Shown in pieces: positions 2,611 through 64,000 of a stretch of DNA of 64,000 nt. Every line of letters begins with the position of its first letter. The first letter of the stretch is position 1. The DNA is from a virus (lineage: Duplodnaviria; Heunggongvirae; Uroviricota; Caudoviricetes). Both the position numbers and the translations under genes were made by a program. Below the pieces are notes generated by a model that saw only the letters and a program-made list of their open reading frames with translations, ran no database searches and was not told the origin of the DNA. Location of the stretch: positions 31,285-95,284 of the IMG/VR virus record IMGVR_UViG_2802429224_000004; one strand, given 5' to 3'.

Positions 2611-3201
<591 letters not shown>

Positions 3202-3220
3202 TTAACCGATTCTACGAGTT

Positions 3221-3236
3221 GTCATTTGTTACCGGT
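3221..3236 (-). promoter_or_regulatory. Candidate late promoter motif (GTCATTTGTT core) about 45 nt upstream of the tail operon
   Basis: Shares a TGAC/GTCA-containing motif with sites upstream of the head, baseplate and pacA operons at similar spacing. Confidence 0.3.
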
Positions 3237-3330
3237 CAGTCTACACATTTCAGATGCTGCGTTAAAAAATTCAAGTACTTCAAGTAGCACATCGTCATCA
3301 ACACCCAGCCCCAAGATACGGTGATAAAAT

Positions 3331-4308
3331 TCAAGCCTTAAGAGGCTTTGTGTATGTTCGTGTAATCCAACCAGTAATAAACTCATCCCCTGATTTAACC
3401 TGCACGTAAAGCCATTGACGATCTTTCTTATCTAAAATAGCAACAATTGTGTTTTTGCCAATGCATTCAATCACTTCACTATTTAAAGAAGGGCTGACAT
3501 GTAATCTTACGTTATCACCAGTTATAAACCTAAAACCATTGAGATCTTCCCACTTAATTTCTGTGTTTTCTTTAATTAATTTTTGTTTTGAAATTGGTGC
3601 ATCCTCATATAGGGATACAGAATATGATTCTGTCTTGTGTATTTGCGATAAGATTTGTTCTTTTGCATAATCAGCAATGGCACCAAGCAACACTTCTGTT
3701 AAAAACCACATAATAATAAACTGAAGCGGGTGAGGGAGCGCCTTAAATGAGTCAATAAACGTCGAACTGGATTTATTTAATCCTTTGTCTTGAACATCAC
3801 TTTCGTTGTGAGATGTTTCAATAGCACCTTCAACATAAGCCTGTGCAATTGATGAAAGACCTTGCTCCATTGTTCTATTAAATAGAGATGTCTTTTTTTC
3901 AATATATTGATTTTCTTGTTTTTTTATAATATCTTTTGTTAAATCATCGTAAGTTATATATTCTCGTAAATTTTTAAGTGTAGCCTCCATACTTTCCAAG
4001 CCAGCTTGTTTATTAAAAACTACTATCTGGCTTTGTAATGACAAAGATTTTTCCGACTGTTTCTGAAAATTTTCAACATACTTACGGAAAAGATGGTTTA
4101 TCTCATTCGTTTTTAGTGATGTGTTAAATTTTTTTTGAAGATAATTATCTAATATTTTTTGAGATGTTTTTTCCAAAACTATATGCAATAGATTTTGTTG
4201 CAAAAAATCAAGCGGGGTAGTAAGACCACCCAAACTCACTGATTTTGCTAAATTACTTAACTCGTTATATTTGGAGCTATTAATACTTGCCATCTTATTC
4301 GCCATCAT
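3331..4308 (-). CDS. Membrane protein with one TM helix and a C-terminal SH3b-like domain; strongly AT-rich
   Basis: 325 aa; hydrophobic segment LQFIIMWFLTEVLLGAIADY; C-terminal stretch ...WLYVQVKSGDEFITGWITRTY looks SH3-like; DNA estimated by eye near 30% GC versus about 47% around it. Confidence 0.55.
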   Translation of the reverse strand: MMANKMASINSSKYNELSNLAKSVSLGGLTTPLDFLQQNLLHIVLEKTSQKILDNYLQKKFNTSLKTNEINHLFRKYVENFQKQSEKSLSLQSQIVVFNKQAGLESMEATLKNLREYITYDDLTKDIIKKQENQYIEKKTSLFNRTMEQGLSSIAQAYVEGAIETSHNESDVQDKGLNKSSSTFIDSFKALPHPLQFIIMWFLTEVLLGAIADYAKEQILSQIHKTESYSVSLYEDAPISKQKLIKENTEIKWEDLNGFRFITGDNVRLHVSPSLNSEVIECIGKNTIVAILDKKDRQWLYVQVKSGDEFITGWITRTYTKPLKA

Positions 4309-4801
4309 ATTGTTTTAAACACCCGTCTTTTTTAGCTTCCTTGTAAATACTTGAAATACCATTAAGAGAGAATGATGTGATTCGACGCGATCCGATATAT
4401 ACATCCATGTTTTTTTCTTTTGTGGCTGACGCTGACTTCCAAAAAGAATACCATTCCCTACGATTTGGAGCAGTGTTTTGCGTACCAATATTAAAGCTAT
4501 CCGGACCAACAATTAAGGTAATTACATCAGCTTTACGAGAAATTGTGTCGCGTGTAGAAAAATCAGCATTCTCTTTCCCTCCACTTACATACAAATTTCT
4601 TCCAGCGATATGATCTTCGGAACCTTCCCTTGCTCCAGCATCACAAGAAAAGTTAATTGTATAACCATCGTCATTGGTTGCAGAGATTTCTCTCCACCCT
4701 TGCTCACCTCCTACCGTCCAAACGGTAGAACCTGCCATTGCTGATAATGGCAGAAAAGAGGACATTAATAAAAAGCTATACAATGACTTATACAATTTCA
4801 T
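4295..4801 (-). CDS. Secreted protein with Sec signal peptide
   Basis: 168 aa; N-terminus MKLYKSLYSFLLMSSFLPLSAMAG; overlaps upstream gene by 14 nt (operon). Confidence 0.5.
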   Translation of the reverse strand: MKLYKSLYSFLLMSSFLPLSAMAGSTVWTVGGEQGWREISATNDDGYTINFSCDAGAREGSEDHIAGRNLYVSGGKENADFSTRDTISRKADVITLIVGPDSFNIGTQNTAPNRREWYSFWKSASATKEKNMDVYIGSRRITSFSLNGISSIYKEAKKDGCLKQYDGE

Positions 4802-4889
4802 ATTTTTATCCTTTTGTTTTTAGATATTATAGGCATAGTCCATATTGTTAGATCCACTATGCCCAGAGAATTTAATATTATTTATTAAA

Positions 4890-5381
4890 TTATGGAGCTA
4901 CACCCGGCCCCCTAGCTCGTTCTTCAAGCGTACCCTGCACGTTTTGATGGCGCATTCCCGGGGCGTTTCTGATTGAATCAATGCCATTTCTTCCAACGTC
5001 TTCTTTATTAACGGCATTGCTCGCCACCAGAACGCCCCAGCTAGGGATAGCAAAATCAGGAGCGGTTTCGCATGCCTTTACCATATAATCGAAAGTGCTT
5101 CGATTGATCTCATTTGCGTCTGGATTTAACAGGCGAGAATATTGATATTTAGCATTTTCGTTGGTTGCGACTTTATACAGTTCTTGCTGCACCATCGCTT
5201 CAGAAAGTTTAAGACGTTTCATGTCTGAAAGTAACTTCTTGCGCATGGATTCGTCTTGGCTGACAGCAAAGCCGTAAACGTGCCCAAGGTATTTCGTGTA
5301 GTCGGTACAAATCGCCTTTACACTTGATGCTGCATTAACAGTCCCAGCCATAAATAATAACGGTAGTAATAGTTTTCTCAT
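4890..5381 (-). CDS. Secreted protein with Sec signal peptide (sim-locus position)
   Basis: 163 aa; N-terminus MRKLLLPLLFMAGTVNAASS. Confidence 0.5.
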   Translation of the reverse strand: MRKLLLPLLFMAGTVNAASSVKAICTDYTKYLGHVYGFAVSQDESMRKKLLSDMKRLKLSEAMVQQELYKVATNENAKYQYSRLLNPDANEINRSTFDYMVKACETAPDFAIPSWGVLVASNAVNKEDVGRNGIDSIRNAPGMRHQNVQGTLEERARGPGVAP

Positions 5382-5477
5382 TATAACCTCACCTGCCTTT
5401 TAACTCATTTAGGGTACATATTTTCGCCTTTAAAAAAAAGAGGTTATTAGATCCAGTTGTGTATTTATTAAACAGTA

Positions 5478-5494
5478 AGTGCTCTAATAAATTT
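5478..5494 (+). promoter_or_regulatory. C1 operator (Op51-like), 16/17 match to ATTGCTCTAATAAATTT
   Basis: AGTGCTCTAATAAATTT upstream of c4-icd-ant; position counted from the 5381 start codon. Confidence 0.6.
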
Positions 5495-5807: not shown

Positions 5808-6029
5808 ATGGTTAATGCCAATCCTTGCGCACGCCCAGAATTCATCTGGCGTTTCTATTCCTGTAAAAAACACCACTATCACTTCGTTATCGCAGCAACA
5901 GAAGACGAAGCACGCTCTCAATTGCCTGACGGCCCCTGCATTTTTACTGCCCGTTTTTCAACTAACTCGCGCAATTCACTTAGTTACTGGAACCTCCCCT
6001 TCTCTGCCGACGTTCAGGGGGGTTTATGA
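5808..6029 (+). CDS. icd: Icd-like cell division inhibitor
   Basis: 73 aa; overlaps ant start (ATGA); paralog of the ORF at 55150. Confidence 0.55.
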   Translation: MVNANPCARPEFIWRFYSCKKHHYHFVIAATEDEARSQLPDGPCIFTARFSTNSRNSLSYWNLPFSADVQGGL

Positions 6030-7072
6030 AAAAACCTCTCGTCACCCGTAATGAAATAGCCGAAGCGATCGCCCTGCATACAACCTGTATGCCGACACGG
6101 GAGATCCCCGGCGCAATTGCCAACTATTTCATGATAACCAGGCGTTTTTATACCCGAACAGATAAGGCTGTGATCAACAGGCTACTGATAGCCGAGATCA
6201 GGGATTATTTGATTAAACAAGGACGTCTACGTTACGCAACGGTGGCAGCAGAAATGAGAAAGGAGGCGCGCAGAATGACCGGTAATAATTTGAATGTTGA
6301 AAAACCAGCACCTGTTGCTTCAGCTACGCCATCACCAACTGTGAATGTTATCTCCAACACTGGAGACACAATCGACAGCCAGACACTGTTAAAGATGGTC
6401 AATGAAGCGCGTAAGTTATGTGGGGAACCAGAGGTTCGGAACAACAAATTCATCGAAAAAATACTCGACGAATTAGAAGGTGAGGACGGTTACACAAAAA
6501 GTGCAACCGTGCCGCCAGGTGGCGGTACGCCTATGGTTGTCATAACCATGACCTACAAACAAGCCCTGCGAGTCGCCGCGCGCGAGTCAAAAGCGGTCCG
6601 CCGTTCGCTGATCGACAAACTGGAAGAATTGCAGCAGGCAAACTCCCCTACCCCATCGATCCCCCAAACATTACCAGAAGCCCTACGCCTGGCTGCCGAG
6701 TTAGCAGAACAGAAAATGCAGTTGGAACAACAGCTGGTGGCCGCAGCCCCTAAAGTCGATTTTGCCGACCGGGTATCAGTGGCCAATGGAATCCTGATCG
6801 GGAACTTTGCAAAGGTCGTTGGACTTAAGCAAAACGCCCTTTTCTCATGGTTGCGCCAGAACGGCATTCTCATGGCTTTTGGAGCGCGCAAAAACGTACC
6901 GCGCCAACAGTACATCAACGCCGGGTATTTCACGGTGAAAGAAGTGGTGCTGGATGATGAAAATGGCTACCAGATACGGCTGACGCCCCAATTAACGGGT
7001 AAAGGCCAGCAGTGGTTAACTCGCAAGCTACTTGATGCTGGTTTGTTAAAACCAGTGGCGTCCTTGTCTTAA
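6026..7072 (+). CDS. ant1: Antirepressor Ant (Ant1/Ant2 type)
   Basis: 348 aa; C-terminal KilA-C/Ant domain (QTLPEALRLAAELAEQK...GKGQQWLTRKLLDAGLL) shared with KilA and the 55368 ORF. Confidence 0.7.
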   Translation: MKKPLVTRNEIAEAIALHTTCMPTREIPGAIANYFMITRRFYTRTDKAVINRLLIAEIRDYLIKQGRLRYATVAAEMRKEARRMTGNNLNVEKPAPVASATPSPTVNVISNTGDTIDSQTLLKMVNEARKLCGEPEVRNNKFIEKILDELEGEDGYTKSATVPPGGGTPMVVITMTYKQALRVAARESKAVRRSLIDKLEELQQANSPTPSIPQTLPEALRLAAELAEQKMQLEQQLVAAAPKVDFADRVSVANGILIGNFAKVVGLKQNALFSWLRQNGILMAFGARKNVPRQQYINAGYFTVKEVVLDDENGYQIRLTPQLTGKGQQWLTRKLLDAGLLKPVASLS

Positions 7073-61623: not shown

Positions 61624-64000
61624 TTATGGTAATGCGCTCTTGATTAACTGATAAATATCATCATTAGCAAACTGCGTTTTGAATTCAACTTTAACAGACT
61701 GACTTATTTGATTGAAAAGCGCCTGGGCATGTTCAATTTTCTTTTTTTCTTCAAGCCGTAAACTATCCTTACTATCTACGTTTTTTGTTTCAATGATAAA
61801 GTTAAGATAATCACCTTCTGCTGTTTTTACAACATAAGCAAAATCGGGTGAGTAAGTGTATCCACCAGCTACCGGGATCTTAATAGAATTCTTCGGTATC
61901 TTTGAAAAAACAACAACAGACTGGATCTCTCTATCTGTTATATTACGCCTTTCAAGCTCTGAATCATAAAAAACTTCTTCAAAAAGATAAGTATCTAATG
62001 GTGCTTTTGAATTATCCTGTAATACACCAAGATCACTTGATAATACCTCGTCTAGAGGCTTACCATCAGCATTTGTGAACTTTGTGGGATGAATTGAACC
62101 CGAAATCAAATTATATCCGAGGCTGAATTTATTAAACGAATTGTTCAACAAATACTTACTAAAACCAGATTTAATTTTTCTGATTGTTTGAATATTCAGG
62201 TATTCAGTGATATTAATAGTGTCTTTTATATCACAAAAAACTTTATGTAAAGTATCGTGTTTAACAAAAATAGTCTGTGATAAGTTATCGAGAAACTCTC
62301 GATAACTCATTGTGTTTAGCTTAGCAAAGTCATCGTCATCACTAACAATGCTTTTCGACATTGCCATATCATTGTGGATGTAAATTTTATCAATGCGAGT
62401 ATGAACGCCTGATTTGGTAAATCGTTCTGTTTCTTCGAGCATGAATGACTTGAAAATGGATAAAAACTCATTTTCACTGTTTATTTTGTACTCAATCACC
62501 GCTTTTTGATTGATTAATTCCCATAGTTCTTTCAGCTCACTGAACTTACCAACACGCATTTTAGTGCGTCTTTTTCCATCAGTAGCTTTTTTGATTTTAC
62601 CTGGTTTCACTCCTATAGGGAATGCTGCTGGATATTTGGATTTTAAGCGGCTGTAGGCATCTGAATCTTTGAAATTATCATTGTCATCAATGATTTCATC
62701 ATTGAAAAGTTCATTCATTAGTGCTCTGGATGAAAGCTCAGGATACTGAGCCCTGATTTGTTCCTTAAGCTCTTGAGTAAACTTACTTGGAACCCTTTCT
62801 TTGAAAGAACTCTCATTGACCTCTTTAACAAGTGAGTCAACAAAATCCTTTTCTGTAAAATCGACATAATATTTAAGGGTAAAATTGCGGTCTTTCACTC
62901 GACACATGTATTCATTCACAGGAAGACGCAAACCGCGCCCTACCTCTTGAAGCTTGGATGTGGTACTACCGCTCGAACGGAGCTTACAGATCTGAAAGAC
63001 ATTAGGATTATCCCATCCCTCACGCAACGTCCATTTGGAGAAAATGAAACGACGTGGATTATCTAAAGACAGCAAAAGCTCTTTGTCATGAAGGATTTCG
63101 TTGATTTCCTTCTCGATTTTATCATCCTTATCACTGTTATCTTTTGAAAAATAACCGCCATGAACGGAAGATATATCTTTAACTGTTTTTTCAAGATAGT
63201 TACTATAAAACTCATCTTTTTCTATTTTTAACAGTTCATTAGCTTCTGCCAAAACATATTCTTCGAACTTAGCTTTCAAACTTCCGGCAATATTATTACC
63301 GTCACGATAACCTTCAATATCATCAATAAAGAAAAGAGTAAGAGGCTTTATGCGTGGCCTTTGTGTCAGAAACTCTTTTTCTAACTTAAAGTGTTCTTTG
63401 ATAGCTTTCCTCATCATGCTGTCAGCAAGTGTCTGATCGTAAGAATAGGGGTTTATTGAGCAACCAATTTTTAGCTCAATACCATTACTCAACACTACTG
63501 TATTCTTGCCTAAGGCATCAAGAGTTAAATCGTGAATAGCACTATGTGTCTTAGATAGAGATTCGCCTTTTGTTAACTTAAATAAAGTTTTCTTGTTATT
63601 TTCATTTAGCTCAAATGTAACTTCTTCCCCATCAGATTTAATGAACTTTAGGTTGGCGTCACCATCACCAACAATATCCTCAATGTACGCATCAATACCT
63701 TTAACAAGGTCTTCATTAAATGCATCCACAGCTGTAAGTCGATAAACTAAATTCTTATAGCCTTCACTAAAGGTCGCACCGTAGCGGATAATATATTGAG
63801 CATTAAACTTCTCTATATTTTCCCATGTCTTTTTACCAGTAGGAAATTTATGTGGTTCATCAATGATAATGAATGGTTTTACCGCACCAAGAGCTGAAAA
63901 GGGAGAATCAAAATGATTGTCAAGCAAGCCAACATCATAAGTGGAATTTAAATTCTTAGAGTGAATCATTCCCGTGTTAATAACAAGAACATGTATATAT
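61624..64000 (-). CDS. res: Type III restriction enzyme Res subunit, C-terminal about 790 aa; N-terminus lies beyond the right edge
   Basis: Helicase motifs IIIDEPHKF (DEPH) and REGWDNPNV...LRSSGSTTSKLQEVGRGLRL, plus a C-terminal PD-(D/E)xK-like GYTYSPDFAYV...IIETK. Confidence 0.75.
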   Translation of the reverse strand, partial: YIHVLVINTGMIHSKNLNSTYDVGLLDNHFDSPFSALGAVKPFIIIDEPHKFPTGKKTWENIEKFNAQYIIRYGATFSEGYKNLVYRLTAVDAFNEDLVKGIDAYIEDIVGDGDANLKFIKSDGEEVTFELNENNKKTLFKLTKGESLSKTHSAIHDLTLDALGKNTVVLSNGIELKIGCSINPYSYDQTLADSMMRKAIKEHFKLEKEFLTQRPRIKPLTLFFIDDIEGYRDGNNIAGSLKAKFEEYVLAEANELLKIEKDEFYSNYLEKTVKDISSVHGGYFSKDNSDKDDKIEKEINEILHDKELLLSLDNPRRFIFSKWTLREGWDNPNVFQICKLRSSGSTTSKLQEVGRGLRLPVNEYMCRVKDRNFTLKYYVDFTEKDFVDSLVKEVNESSFKERVPSKFTQELKEQIRAQYPELSSRALMNELFNDEIIDDNDNFKDSDAYSRLKSKYPAAFPIGVKPGKIKKATDGKRRTKMRVGKFSELKELWELINQKAVIEYKINSENEFLSIFKSFMLEETERFTKSGVHTRIDKIYIHNDMAMSKSIVSDDDDFAKLNTMSYREFLDNLSQTIFVKHDTLHKVFCDIKDTINITEYLNIQTIRKIKSGFSKYLLNNSFNKFSLGYNLISGSIHPTKFTNADGKPLDEVLSSDLGVLQDNSKAPLDTYLFEEVFYDSELERRNITDREIQSVVVFSKIPKNSIKIPVAGGYTYSPDFAYVVKTAEGDYLNFIIETKNVDSKDSLRLEEKKKIEHAQALFNQISQSVKVEFKTQFANDDIYQLIKSALP

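What the first reader, a model, noticed from the sequence alone, without database searches (positions are those of the whole stretch)
3331..5381. AT-rich three-gene module at the sim position
Between the tail operon and immI, where P1 carries the sim superimmunity genes, there are three minus-strand genes. The first (325 aa) is about 30% GC by eye against about 47% for the backbone, and encodes a cytoplasmic helical domain, one TM helix and a periplasmic SH3b-like domain. The other two (168 and 163 aa) have Sec signal peptides. The composition and the exported or membrane topology fit a swapped-in superinfection-exclusion or envelope-acting cargo.
Basis: partly seen in the sequence, partly recalled or inferred. 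Interest (0 to 1): 0.5.

Follow-up and report, generated by a model that had tools for sequence, protein, structure and literature searches.

The report
Uncharacterised envelope-protein cassette in P1's sim slot
In this P1-like phage-plasmid, the known hypervariable, AT-rich slot that holds the sim superinfection-exclusion genes in phage P1 instead carries a recurrent three-gene mosaic for exported or membrane proteins of unknown function, which may be an alternative way of blocking incoming phages.

Summary
Three minus-strand ORFs (3331-4308, 4295-4801, 4890-5381) lie between pmgC and c4/icd/ant. ORF1 is 32% GC against 46.8% for the window, the lowest-GC kilobase in it.

This is the published hypervariable, low-GC sim slot of P1-like phage-plasmids; P1's own simB and simC are equally AT-rich.

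The cassette is a nested mosaic, not one swapped-in unit.
- ORF3 is the resident first gene of the slot, 3'-truncated here. P1's 52-aa simA is a 5' relic of such a gene.
- ORF2 is a YfjT/YkfB-family periplasmic protein.
- ORF1 carries a C-terminal SH3_3 domain, one borderline hydrophobic segment and a fast-evolving N-terminal helical region. It also occurs alone in other prophages.

None is homologous to SimB or SimC, to a PADLOC defence family, or to a solved structure. All three are under purifying selection.

YfjT-family genes occur in 177 of about 506 P1-type plasmids in PLSDB, SimC in 141, and the SH3 gene in 64.

Every product seen at this slot, in six allele types, is exported or membrane-bound. 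An envelope-level, Sim-like exclusion role is therefore the best guess, but it is inferred, not shown. ORF1's membrane topology is unresolved.

Overall: an ordinary locus with uncharacterised cargo, of modest interest.

The parts
3331..4308 (-). ORF1, 325 aa, SH3_3-domain protein; 32.2% GC. This is a rare N-terminal allele of a family seen almost only in enterobacterial prophages and phage-plasmids.
   Evidence: ORF. GC. PHROG 7086 at E = 1.7e-129, function unknown. 31 clusters of homologues, all Escherichia, Citrobacter and relatives. RefSeq calls relatives 'SH3 domain-containing protein'.
3352..3516 (-). SH3_3 (bacterial SH3) domain of ORF1, aa 265-319. It is part of a C-terminal 140-aa module that aligns across the family without a single indel.
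   Evidence: Pfam PF08239 at E = 8.2e-6, 26.4 bits against a gathering score of 27. 28 of 28 family members match, best 1.5e-9. Gap-free C-terminal alignment. dN/dS 0.16-0.28. Not confirmed by structure or by a PDB profile search.
3667..3729 (-). The single hydrophobic segment of ORF1 (aa 194-214, LQFIIMWFLTEVLLGAIADYA). It may be a transmembrane helix; its orientation is unresolved.
   Evidence: Maximum Kyte-Doolittle 19-residue score 1.76. Family range over 20 residues is 0.97-2.01, with a conserved central E, Q or K. Mean K+R in the 15-aa flanks is 1.15 on the N side and 2.15 on the C side.
3754..4308 (-). Variable N-terminal region of ORF1 (aa 1-185), predicted helical at low confidence and the most AT-rich part (30% GC). 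The stretch 4064-4294 has no DNA similarity to the 344-, 357- or 389-aa alleles.
   Evidence: Alignment A1 shows length and repeat variation, including ~19-aa tandem repeats in Citrobacter alleles. blastn breakpoints. dN/dS about 0.6 for aa 72-185. Helices in the low-confidence model.
4295..4801 (-). ORF2, 168 aa, a YfjT/YkfB-family protein with a Sec-type leader (aa 1-23, cleavage AMA|G) and two conserved cysteines (C53, C161). It overlaps the ORF1 start by 14 nt.
   Evidence: ORF. PF27224 (YfjT) is precomputed on the 98%-identical cluster representative and on relatives. RefSeq name. 27% identity to E. coli K-12 YfjT. Only 22 clusters found in 1.84 billion proteins. Family alignment A8. dN/dS 0.09-0.12.
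4830..4865 (-). 10-bp stem hairpin in the ORF3-ORF2 intergenic spacer, lying inside the AT-rich inserted piece. Its role is unknown; it could be an mRNA processing or attenuation element.
   Evidence: RNA fold of 4802-4895(-): -17.6 kcal/mol, z = -3.55, and 0 of 200 shuffles fold as well. It is identical in relatives, so there is no covariation to test.
4890..5381 (-). ORF3, 163 aa, a 'SimA-domain' protein. It has a Sec-type leader (aa 1-17, cleavage VNA|A) and a confidently predicted all-helical domain (aa 20-130) with invariant C25 and C104. It is 3'-truncated relative to the 215-246-aa family members.
5242..5381 (-). 5' part of ORF3 that is shared with P1, where it is annotated as simA.
   Evidence: blastn homology to P1 resumes at 5242. 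SimA aa 10-49 are 92.5% identical to ORF3 aa 1-40. The DNA alignment shows divergence after codon ~40 and that the simB ATG coincides with the Met46 codon of ORF3.
5446..5494 (.). Conserved control region. It holds the equivalent of P1's predicted PsimA promoter (5446-5472, minus strand) and the C1 operator Oc4 (5478-5494, AGTGCTCTAATAAATTT on the plus strand), which also controls the divergent c4-icd-ant operon.
   Evidence: Positions transferred from the P1 annotation using the blastn offset. Near-identical sequence in the window, P1, Ro157c2 and pUPEC957C-2. The promoter is predicted in the P1 record and was not tested here.
3209..3238 (-). Left edge of the variable slot. It holds the equivalent of the P1 late promoter LPsit (3209-3227), which drives pmgC-tub-pmgB-sit. 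Backbone homology to P1, P7 and Ro157c2 ends at 3230-3238.
   Evidence: P1 annotation. blastn breakpoints. Sequences compared.
3333..3348 (-). Weak terminator-like hairpin that overlaps the ORF1 stop codon.
   Evidence: Consensus scan only: 4 terminator-like sites found against 2.0 expected from shuffles, so the evidence is weak.

Best explanation
**Shown.** This is the hypervariable cargo slot of P1-like phage-plasmids, between the late tail operon (pmgC) and immI (c4-icd-ant), where P1 itself carries simA, simB and simC. Here it holds a nested mosaic.
- ORF3 is the conserved first gene of the slot. It encodes a disulfide-containing helical protein with a Sec leader. It is expressed from the same conserved upstream region as sim, which includes C1 operator Oc4. 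In this window it is cut short after codon 161.
- An AT-rich inserted segment follows. It carries a YfjT/YkfB-family secreted protein (ORF2) and, tightly coupled to it, an SH3_3-domain protein with one hydrophobic segment and a fast-evolving N-terminal helical region (ORF1).
- P1's simA is a 5' relic of an ORF3-type gene that was overwritten by simB-simC.

**Inferred.** The cassette is accessory cargo, transcribed leftward from the sim-type promoter region. Its products act in the cell envelope. Their most likely job is the one known for this slot in P1: blocking superinfecting phage after adsorption, at the stage of periplasmic passage or DNA entry. They would do this with proteins unrelated to SimB and SimC. 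On this view ORF2 and ORF3 are soluble periplasmic factors. ORF1 would be membrane-anchored and possibly peptidoglycan-binding through its SH3 domain, and it can also work on its own.
For: **Position and junctions.**
- Position and flanks.
- Junctions at about 3230-3238, 4902 and 5242.
- The region upstream of ORF3 (predicted PsimA, Oc4, ribosome-binding site) is nearly identical to P1.

**Envelope theme.** Every product seen at this slot in six allele types is exported or membrane-bound:
- SimB and SimC of P1;
- upf50.0 and the lipoprotein upf50.5 of P7;
- gp34 and gp35 of Ro157c2;
- ORF2 and ORF3 here;
- the 116-aa multi-TM protein of the L009-type allele.

**Known function of the slot.** P1 Sim is reported to cause superinfection exclusion (Kliem and Dreiseikelmann 1989; Devlin et al. 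1982, as cited in PMC8546580). The sim genes are non-essential (PMC10695390).

**The genes are functional.** dN/dS is 0.05-0.28 for ORF2, ORF3 and the ORF1 C-terminus.

**Arms-race pattern in ORF1.**
- The N-terminal region has dN/dS of about 0.6.
- It exists as several unrelated alleles and varies in repeat number.

**ORF1 behaves as a moron.** It occurs alone, on the strand opposite its neighbours, in Citrobacter phage-plasmids and in a lambdoid nin region.

**Prevalence and restriction.**
- PLSDB counts are 177 (YfjT family), 141 (SimC) and 64 (SH3 gene) among about 506 P1-type plasmids.
- The families are almost confined to phage elements.
Against: - There is no functional evidence of any kind for these proteins.
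- There is no sequence or profile similarity to SimB or SimC.
- There is no match to any PADLOC or NCBIfam family or to a solved or viral predicted structure.
- ORF1 topology is unresolved, so its SH3 domain could be cytoplasmic.
- ORF3 is truncated here and may be partly disabled.
- Signal peptides were judged by inspection, not by a trained predictor.
- The promoter is a prediction carried over from the P1 record.
- To my recollection, which I could not check here, sim gives its phenotype mainly from multicopy clones. So even the paradigm's natural role is uncertain.
- YfjT homologues also sit in non-P1 cryptic elements (CP4-57), where an anti-P1 role is not obvious.
Confidence: 0.45

Rival explanations
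1. Abortive-infection or other anti-phage defence against unrelated phages. ORF1 would be a membrane effector or sensor whose variable N-terminal domain recognises a phage component. ORF2 and ORF3 would be accessory or independent.
For: - ORF1 occurs as a lone, oppositely oriented gene in prophage accessory positions typical of defence morons.
- Its N-terminal domain evolves fast and varies in repeats, while the C-terminal module is conserved.
- Its neighbour in the lambdoid locus has a weak PADLOC candidate hit, PDC-S29 at E = 4.7e-4.
- Other P1 variable regions hold defence genes, for example the type III res gene at 61624-63969.
Against: - No PADLOC hit for ORF1, ORF2 or ORF3, or for distant ORF1 homologues.
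- No enzymatic or NTPase domain in any of the three.
- The two other proteins carry export signals, which points to the periplasm rather than to cytoplasmic sensing.
Confidence: 0.2
2. Lysogenic-conversion cargo unrelated to phage resistance. The envelope proteins would alter host cell-wall or outer-membrane physiology, stress tolerance or host interaction, benefiting the carrier strain.
For: - The proteins are exported or membrane-bound.
- SH3_3 domains commonly accompany cell-wall-binding proteins. The only PHROG cross-hit is to an amidase family, through the SH3 region.
- YfjT homologues sit in the K-12 cryptic elements CP4-57 and, by family name, CP4-6, next to a small membrane protein and a lipoprotein.
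- Carriers include STEC, UPEC and E. albertii isolates.
Against: - The families are almost confined to phage and phage-plasmid DNA: 2 of 185,579 species representatives for ORF1 and 22 clusters worldwide for YfjT.
- No virulence or enzyme domain was found.
- The slot's only characterised occupant acts on phage.
Confidence: 0.15
3. An accessory function in the phage's own lytic cycle, such as lysis timing, cell-wall handling at release or injection, or tail assembly. On this view the genes would be expressed with the adjacent late tail operon.
For: - The genes are on the same strand as pmgC-tub-pmgB-sit and immediately upstream of it.
- An SH3 domain could bind peptidoglycan.
- The downstream tape-measure protein Sit carries an SLT transglycosylase domain.
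Against: - The late promoter LPsit lies downstream of the cassette (window 3209-3227).
- The slot is replaceable by unrelated genes in viable phages P1, P7 and Ro157c2.
- The sim genes are non-essential.
- ORF1 occurs in lambdoid and other phages with different tails.
Confidence: 0.1
4. Decaying remnants: recombination debris in a hotspot with no current function.
For: - ORF3 is 3'-truncated here.
- P1 simA is a 52-aa relic.
- Frameshifted and partial family members exist in the databases.
- ORF1 here carries a rare N-terminal allele seen only in read-archive assemblies.
Against: - All three frames are intact.
- dN/dS is 0.05-0.28.
- The same cassette is kept at 91-97% DNA identity in more than 30 complete plasmids from several species.
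Confidence: 0.05

Closest known systems
P1 sim locus (simA-simB-simC; SimC = Sim superinfection-exclusion protein)
   Same: - Same genomic slot and same strand.
- Same conserved upstream region with C1 operator Oc4.
- Similar low GC.
- Non-essential accessory status.
- Products with N-terminal export signals.
- ORF3 aa 1-40 are 92.5% identical to SimA aa 10-49.
   Different: - No detectable homology of ORF1, ORF2 or the rest of ORF3 to SimB or SimC, by BLASTP or profile comparison.
- Three differently built proteins.
- An exclusion phenotype has not been tested.
YfjT/YkfB family (Pfam PF27224; E. coli K-12 cryptic prophages CP4-57 and, by family name, CP4-6)
   Same: ORF2 has the family's size (about 145-168 aa), Sec leader, two conserved cysteines and conserved W/G/FW motifs. 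It is 27% identical to K-12 YfjT.
   Different: - The family itself has no known function.
- The K-12 gene sits in a different operon (ypjK-yfjS-yfjT) in an integrative element.
- ORF2 belongs to a divergent sub-branch, only 28% identical to the other P1-slot YfjT types.
Other alleles of the same slot: P7 upf50.5/upf50.0; Ro157c2YLVW gp35/gp34; the 116-aa TM protein + YfjT(158) + SH3(344) cassette
   Same: - Same junctions with the backbone.
- All encode exported or membrane proteins.
- Ro157c2 gp35 is the full-length form of ORF3, and gp34 is a YfjT homologue.
- The L009-type cassette shares the YfjT-SH3 gene order.
   Different: - The P7 genes are unrelated (DUF5384 plus a lipoprotein).
- Ro157c2 lacks the SH3 gene.
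- The L009 type replaces ORF3 with a multi-TM protein.
- The window's ORF1 has its own N-terminal allele.
Prophage-encoded envelope-level exclusion proteins in general (T4 Imm and Sp, P22 SieA, HK97 gp15, Cor/Llp-type lipoproteins); cited from general knowledge, not tested here
   Same: Small accessory prophage genes that encode periplasmic or inner-membrane proteins and sit in variable moron positions.
   Different: No sequence or structural relationship was found or tested beyond negative PDB, BFVD and PADLOC searches. The resemblance is one of concept only.

Membership tests
P1 Sim (SimC) superinfection-exclusion system | Homology to SimC (264-aa processed periplasmic protein) or SimB | tested here: not met
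   BLASTP gave no hit at E <= 10 other than noise. hhalign of the ORF1, ORF2 and ORF3 family profiles against SimC or SimB gave probability below 2%, with only leader peptides aligned.
P1 Sim (SimC) superinfection-exclusion system | Located between pmgC and the c4-icd-ant operon, downstream of the conserved PsimA/Oc4 region | tested here: met
   Flank homology of 93-98% to P1, with breakpoints at 3230 and 5242. Upstream region aligned.
P1 Sim (SimC) superinfection-exclusion system | Blocks P1 infection after adsorption and does not block transfection | not testable with these tools
   This needs plating, adsorption and DNA-entry assays.
SimA-domain protein family (RefSeq name; PHROG 3933) | Conserved N-terminal leader plus CTDYTKYLGHVYGF motif and the helical domain with C25 and C104 | tested here: met
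   ORF3 is 97-99% identical to RefSeq 'simA domain protein' entries. PHROG 3933 at E = 8.5e-114. Invariant columns.
YfjT/YkfB family (PF27224) | Match to the family model, or homology to K-12 YfjT | tested here: met
   PF27224 is precomputed on the 98%-identical representative P0032. BLASTP to K-12 YfjT gives 27% identity over 150 aa, E = 1.5e-4 in a small database. The local Pfam copy lacks the model, so there was no direct hit.
YfjT/YkfB family (PF27224) | Sec leader and two conserved cysteines in a mature domain of about 125 aa | tested here: met
   Alignment A8: C53 is invariant and C161 is present in at least 90% of members; all members have a hydrophobic leader ending in an A-x-A-like motif.
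Bacterial SH3 domain (Pfam SH3_3, PF08239) | Score at or above the Pfam gathering threshold | tested here: inconclusive
   The window protein scores 26.4 bits against a cut-off of 27. All 28 family members hit at E <= 0.01, best 1.5e-9. Precomputed PF08239 is on record for most homologues.
Bacterial SH3 domain (Pfam SH3_3, PF08239) | SH3-like beta-barrel fold | tested here: inconclusive
   The AlphaFold model had mean pLDDT 38 and only two strands were modelled. A profile search of PDB sequences found nothing.
Known anti-phage defence systems (PADLOC-DB 2.0) | Match to any component model | tested here: not met
   No hit for ORF1 or ORF2. ORF3 had only a noise hit at E = 0.038. Distant ORF1 homologues had none.
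PTP-like phytase (PF14566) | Catalytic C-x5-R P-loop | tested here: not met
   ORF3 scores 26.7 bits against a cut-off of 27, over helical profile positions 48-132 only. The aligned cysteine lies in KACETAPDF, with no arginine at position +6 (direct reading of the sequence). The Salmonella family member has no hit.

The most novel reading that the evidence does not exclude
The YfjT-family protein, the SimA-domain protein and the SH3 protein are new, Sim-unrelated families of periplasm- or membrane-acting superinfection-exclusion or anti-injection factors.
- They would alternate with simBC at one recombination slot in natural P1-like plasmids. The YfjT type is at least as common as sim itself.
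- ORF1's fast-evolving, repeat-variable N-terminal region would set specificity.
- By extension this would give a first function to the E. coli y-genes yfjT and ykfB.
Probability: 0.3. Interest if true: 0.6.

Novelty: new variant of a known kind. Interest (0 to 1): 0.35.

Why it matters
P1 is a workhorse phage, and P1-like phage-plasmids are common carriers of resistance genes in Enterobacteriaceae. The sim slot is one of their eight known variable regions.

The reference simBC genes are only one of several alternatives at this slot. YfjT-family cassettes are at least as frequent: 177 against 141 of about 506 P1-type plasmids in PLSDB.

If these cassettes control which phages or phage-plasmids can enter a lysogen, they would shape incompatibility and competition among these elements, and they would affect phage-therapy host range.

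The analysis also recasts P1 simA as a gene relic rather than a superimmunity accessory gene. It offers a testable lead for the orphan E. coli genes yfjT and ykfB.

None of this is surprising in kind. Accessory envelope genes in a prophage hotspot are expected.

Tried and rejected
**Homology to Sim.** BLASTP and hhalign were negative, apart from the match between the ORF3 5' end and simA.

**Defence-system and family annotation.**
- PADLOC and NCBIfam gave nothing.
- Pfam gave only SH3_3 and a near-threshold PTP-like phytase hit on ORF3. I rejected the latter because the C-x5-R motif is absent and other family members do not hit.

**Structure.**
- The ORF1 model failed (pLDDT 38), so I did not run a fold search on it.
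- ORF2 could not be modelled usefully. The only homologues that may be submitted for modelling are more than 77% identical.
- The AFDB library was unavailable.
- Sequence and profile searches of the PDB were negative for all three proteins and for the SH3 and YfjT profiles.

**Repeats and signals.**
- No meaningful direct or inverted repeats flank the cassette, so there is no sign of a transposon or an att site.
- The promoter scan found fewer sites than shuffled sequence gives.

**ORF1 topology.** The positive-inside rule gave no clear answer.

**Literature.**
- Nothing was found on this cassette or on YfjT/YkfB function.
- The Lobocka 2004 P1 genome paper is not held.

**A single obligate three-gene system.** I rejected this because ORF3+YfjT occurs without the SH3 gene, the SH3 gene occurs without the other two, and the cassette types reassort.
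Full report
**1. What is there**

The window is a P1-like (Punavirus) phage-plasmid. Flanks of the finding are 93-98% identical to P1, P7 and related records.

Three minus-strand ORFs occupy 3331-4308 (325 aa), 4295-4801 (168 aa) and 4890-5381 (163 aa). They lie between pmgC (2611-3177) and icd/ant1 (5808-6029, 6026-7072). The P1 reference has simC, simB and simA in this position.

The composition claim holds.

| Region | GC | GC3 |
|---|---|---|
| ORF1 | 32.2% | 25.8% |
| ORF2 | 38.5% | 29.0% |
| ORF3 | 44.9% | 41.5% |
| Whole window | 46.8% | – |

The lowest-GC 978-bp stretch of the entire window starts at 3401. It is 31.5% GC, against a mean of 46.9% with sd 3.7. ORF3 is therefore not AT-rich. 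The trough is ORF1 plus ORF2.

**2. The slot is a known variable, low-GC region**

- A survey of 77 P1-like phage-plasmids lists simC-simB-simA as one of eight highly variable regions. It notes that simABC is among the low-GC ones (PMC9603915).
- P1's own simC is 33.6% GC and simB 31.5%.
- CRISPRi mapping scored simA, simB and simC as non-essential (PMC10695390).
- Sim is cited as a superinfection-exclusion protein that may stop DNA injection (Devlin 1982; Kliem and Dreiseikelmann 1989, as cited in PMC8546580).

**3. The cassette is a nested mosaic**

blastn breakpoints:
- Backbone homology to P1, P7 and Ro157c2YLVW ends at 3230-3238. That is just past the equivalent of late promoter LPsit (3209-3227).
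- It resumes at 5480 for P7, upstream of ORF3.
- It resumes at 5242 for P1, inside ORF3 at about codon 46.
- It resumes at 4902 for Ro157c2, in the last codons of ORF3.

The junction with P1:
- P1 is essentially identical to the window through the Oc4 operator, the predicted PsimA, the ribosome-binding site and the first ~40 codons of ORF3. It then diverges.
- The P1 simB ATG coincides with the Met46 codon of ORF3, within a shared AATCCATGCG.
- SimA aa 10-49 are 92.5% identical to ORF3 aa 1-40.
- P1 simA (52 aa) is therefore the 5' stump of an ORF3-type gene that simB-simC overwrote.
- In the window, the upstream in-frame ATG used for the P1 simA annotation is followed by TAA. ORF3 therefore starts at 5381, six bases after GGTGAGG.

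The junction with Ro157c2:
- The window-type ORF3 follows the 215-aa Ro157c2 gp35 to codon 161. It then ends three codons into AT-rich DNA.
- ORF3 here is therefore 3'-truncated.
- Full-length relatives are 179-246 aa and carry extra cysteine-paired C-terminal modules.

Within ORF1, the stretch 4064-4294 (the first ~80 codons) has no DNA similarity to the 344-, 357- and 389-aa alleles in other plasmids. The 325-aa allele matches only read-archive assemblies (P0001 at 99%, P0002 at 80%).

**4. The three proteins**

*ORF3.*
- RefSeq calls it 'simA domain protein'; it belongs to PHROG 3933.
- It has a Sec-type leader (MRKLLLPLLFMAGTVNA|A).
- AlphaFold models an all-helical domain at aa 20-130 with pLDDT of about 96. 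C25 and C104 are invariant.
- A near-threshold PTP-like phytase hit (26.7 bits against 27) lacks the C-x5-R motif and was rejected.

*ORF2.*
- It belongs to the YfjT/YkfB family (PF27224 by precomputed annotation; RefSeq name).
- It has a leader ending AMA|G and two conserved cysteines.
- It is 27% identical to K-12 YfjT. That gene lies in the CP4-57 gene run ypjK-yfjS(lipoprotein)-yfjT.
- The family is tiny: 22 clusters at E <= 1e-3 among 1.84 billion representative proteins. Nearly all full-length members are about 145-166 aa.
- There is no PDB relative.

*ORF1.*
- All 28 family members scanned hit Pfam SH3_3, the best at 1.5e-9. The window copy scores 26.4 bits against a cut-off of 27.
- The C-terminal 140 aa comprise the hydrophobic segment, a linker and the SH3 domain. 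They align across the family without any indel.
- The N-terminal region varies in sequence, length (318-481 aa in total) and tandem-repeat number.
- Topology is unresolved, for three reasons:
  - The hydrophobic segment is borderline and has a conserved central E, Q or K.
  - Mean K+R in the flanks is 1.15 on the N side and 2.15 on the C side.
  - The AlphaFold model failed, with pLDDT 38.

*Selection (Nei-Gojobori dN/dS).*

| Region | dN/dS |
|---|---|
| ORF2 | 0.09-0.12 |
| ORF3 | 0.05-0.12 |
| ORF1, C-terminal 140 aa | 0.16-0.28 |
| ORF1, aa 72-185 | about 0.6 |

All three are real genes. The ORF1 N-terminal region is relaxed or diversifying.

**5. Distribution and linkage**

tblastn counts in PLSDB:

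| Query | Plasmid records |
|---|---|
| P1-type PmgC at >= 90% identity | about 506 |
| YfjT-family gene | 177 |
| SimC | 141 |
| ORF1 C-terminal module | 64 |

The window-type cassette is found at 91-97% DNA identity in 32 of 5426 complete E. coli genomes. It also occurs in Salmonella, E. albertii and E. fergusonii plasmids.

Alleles seen at the slot:
- P1: simA', simB, simC.
- P7: upf50.5 (lipoprotein), upf50.0.
- Ro157c2: ORF3-long + YfjT.
- Salmonella: ORF3-long + a YfjT fragment.
- Window type: ORF3 + YfjT(168) + SH3.
- L009 type: 116-aa multi-TM protein + YfjT(158) + SH3(344).

Every product is exported or membrane-bound, by annotation or by leader inspection.

Linkage of the SH3 gene:
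- In the 27 P1-like loci fetched here that reach upstream of it, the SH3 gene lies between a YfjT gene and pmgC. YfjT and SH3 subtypes reassort.
- Outside P1-likes the SH3 gene stands alone on the strand opposite its neighbours. This is seen in Citrobacter phage-plasmids and in a lambdoid nin region.
- ORF1 relatives were found in only 2 of 185,579 species-representative genomes, and in 24 IMG/VR contigs.

It is therefore not an obligate three-gene system.

**6. How it most likely works**

Shown:
- The genomic position.
- The shared upstream control region.
- The mosaic history.
- That the three ORFs are functional genes.
- Export-type leaders on ORF2 and ORF3.
- The SH3_3 signature in ORF1.
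- Restriction of the families to phage elements.

Inferred:
- The genes are transcribed leftward from the sim-type promoter region.
- Their products work in the envelope.
- The slot is specialised for envelope-level functions. The one characterised example is Sim-mediated exclusion of superinfecting P1.

The best single hypothesis is an alternative, non-homologous exclusion or anti-entry cassette (confidence about 0.45).

Rival hypotheses:
- Abortive-infection-type defence centred on ORF1 (0.2).
- Phage-unrelated lysogenic conversion of the envelope (0.15).
- A lytic-cycle accessory role (0.1).
- Decay (0.05).

No tool result discriminates directly between exclusion and the first two rivals. 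Plating, DNA-entry and localisation experiments would.

**7. Comparison with what is known, and verdict**

- The cassette is not a member of the SimB/SimC family. The homology test was negative.
- ORF2 is a member of the uncharacterised YfjT family.
- ORF3 is a member of the 'SimA-domain' family.
- ORF1 carries a probable SH3_3 domain.
- The cassette is already present, as hypothetical proteins, in dozens of annotated records.
- The variability and low GC of the slot are published.

What this analysis adds:
- The junction anatomy, with simA as a relic and ORF3 truncated here.
- The allele census.
- The independence and fast-evolving N-terminus of ORF1.
- The uniform envelope theme at the slot.

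It is a new variant of a known kind. Interest is modest (0.35).

Noticed in passing
window 5242-5381; L001 (P1) 3414-3572: P1's annotated simA (52 aa, 'putative superimmunity accessory function') appears to be the 5' stump of a larger 'SimA-domain' gene of 163-246 aa. The simB ATG sits on what is the Met46 codon of the intact gene.
   Followed up: yes
window 5399-5407: The upstream in-frame ATG that the P1 record uses as the simA start is followed by TAA in this window (ATG AGT TAA, where P1 has ATG AGT TAT). Only the ATG at 5381, six bases after GGTGAGG, can start ORF3.
   Followed up: partly
window 4830-4865 (-): A 10-bp stem hairpin lies in the ORF3-ORF2 spacer. Its z-score is -3.55 against shuffles. 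It is identical in related plasmids, so there is no covariation to test, and its role is unknown.
   Followed up: partly
window 61624-63969 (-): This is a second AT-rich patch (33-37% GC). It is a 781-aa ORF that looks like a type III restriction Res subunit. It falls in the res-mod variable region of P1-like elements and ends near the window edge. Identity is judged from the translation; no search was run.
   Followed up: no
L014 4001-6728 (lambdoid contig, Logan SRR25912373): A distant ORF1 homologue (385 aa) sits with a 380-aa unknown protein on the strand opposite to the nin-region genes. It lies between the lambda-P-like replication gene and the DUF1367/RusA/Q genes. The neighbour has a weak PADLOC candidate hit (PDC-S29, E = 4.7e-4).
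   Followed up: partly
L008 4001-5446 and homologues P0029-P0031 (Citrobacter): ORF1-family alleles of 458-481 aa contain up to about nine tandem copies of a ~19-aa unit (LSERITKLAQGSTIADSVS). Copy number differs between close relatives.
   Followed up: partly
L041 10446-11616 (E. coli K-12 CP4-57): K-12 yfjT follows ypjK (a small membrane protein) and yfjS (an inner-membrane lipoprotein), downstream of the regulator yfjR. This is another envelope-protein gene run in a cryptic element that contains a YfjT-family gene.
   Followed up: no
L016 (MAG labelled Candidatus Paenibacillus intestinavium, contig DXHF01000172.1): A 2.8-kb contig in a Firmicute MAG carries the P1-type ORF3-YfjT-SH3-pmgC arrangement at 97-99% protein identity to E. 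coli elements. This is almost certainly binning contamination.
   Followed up: no
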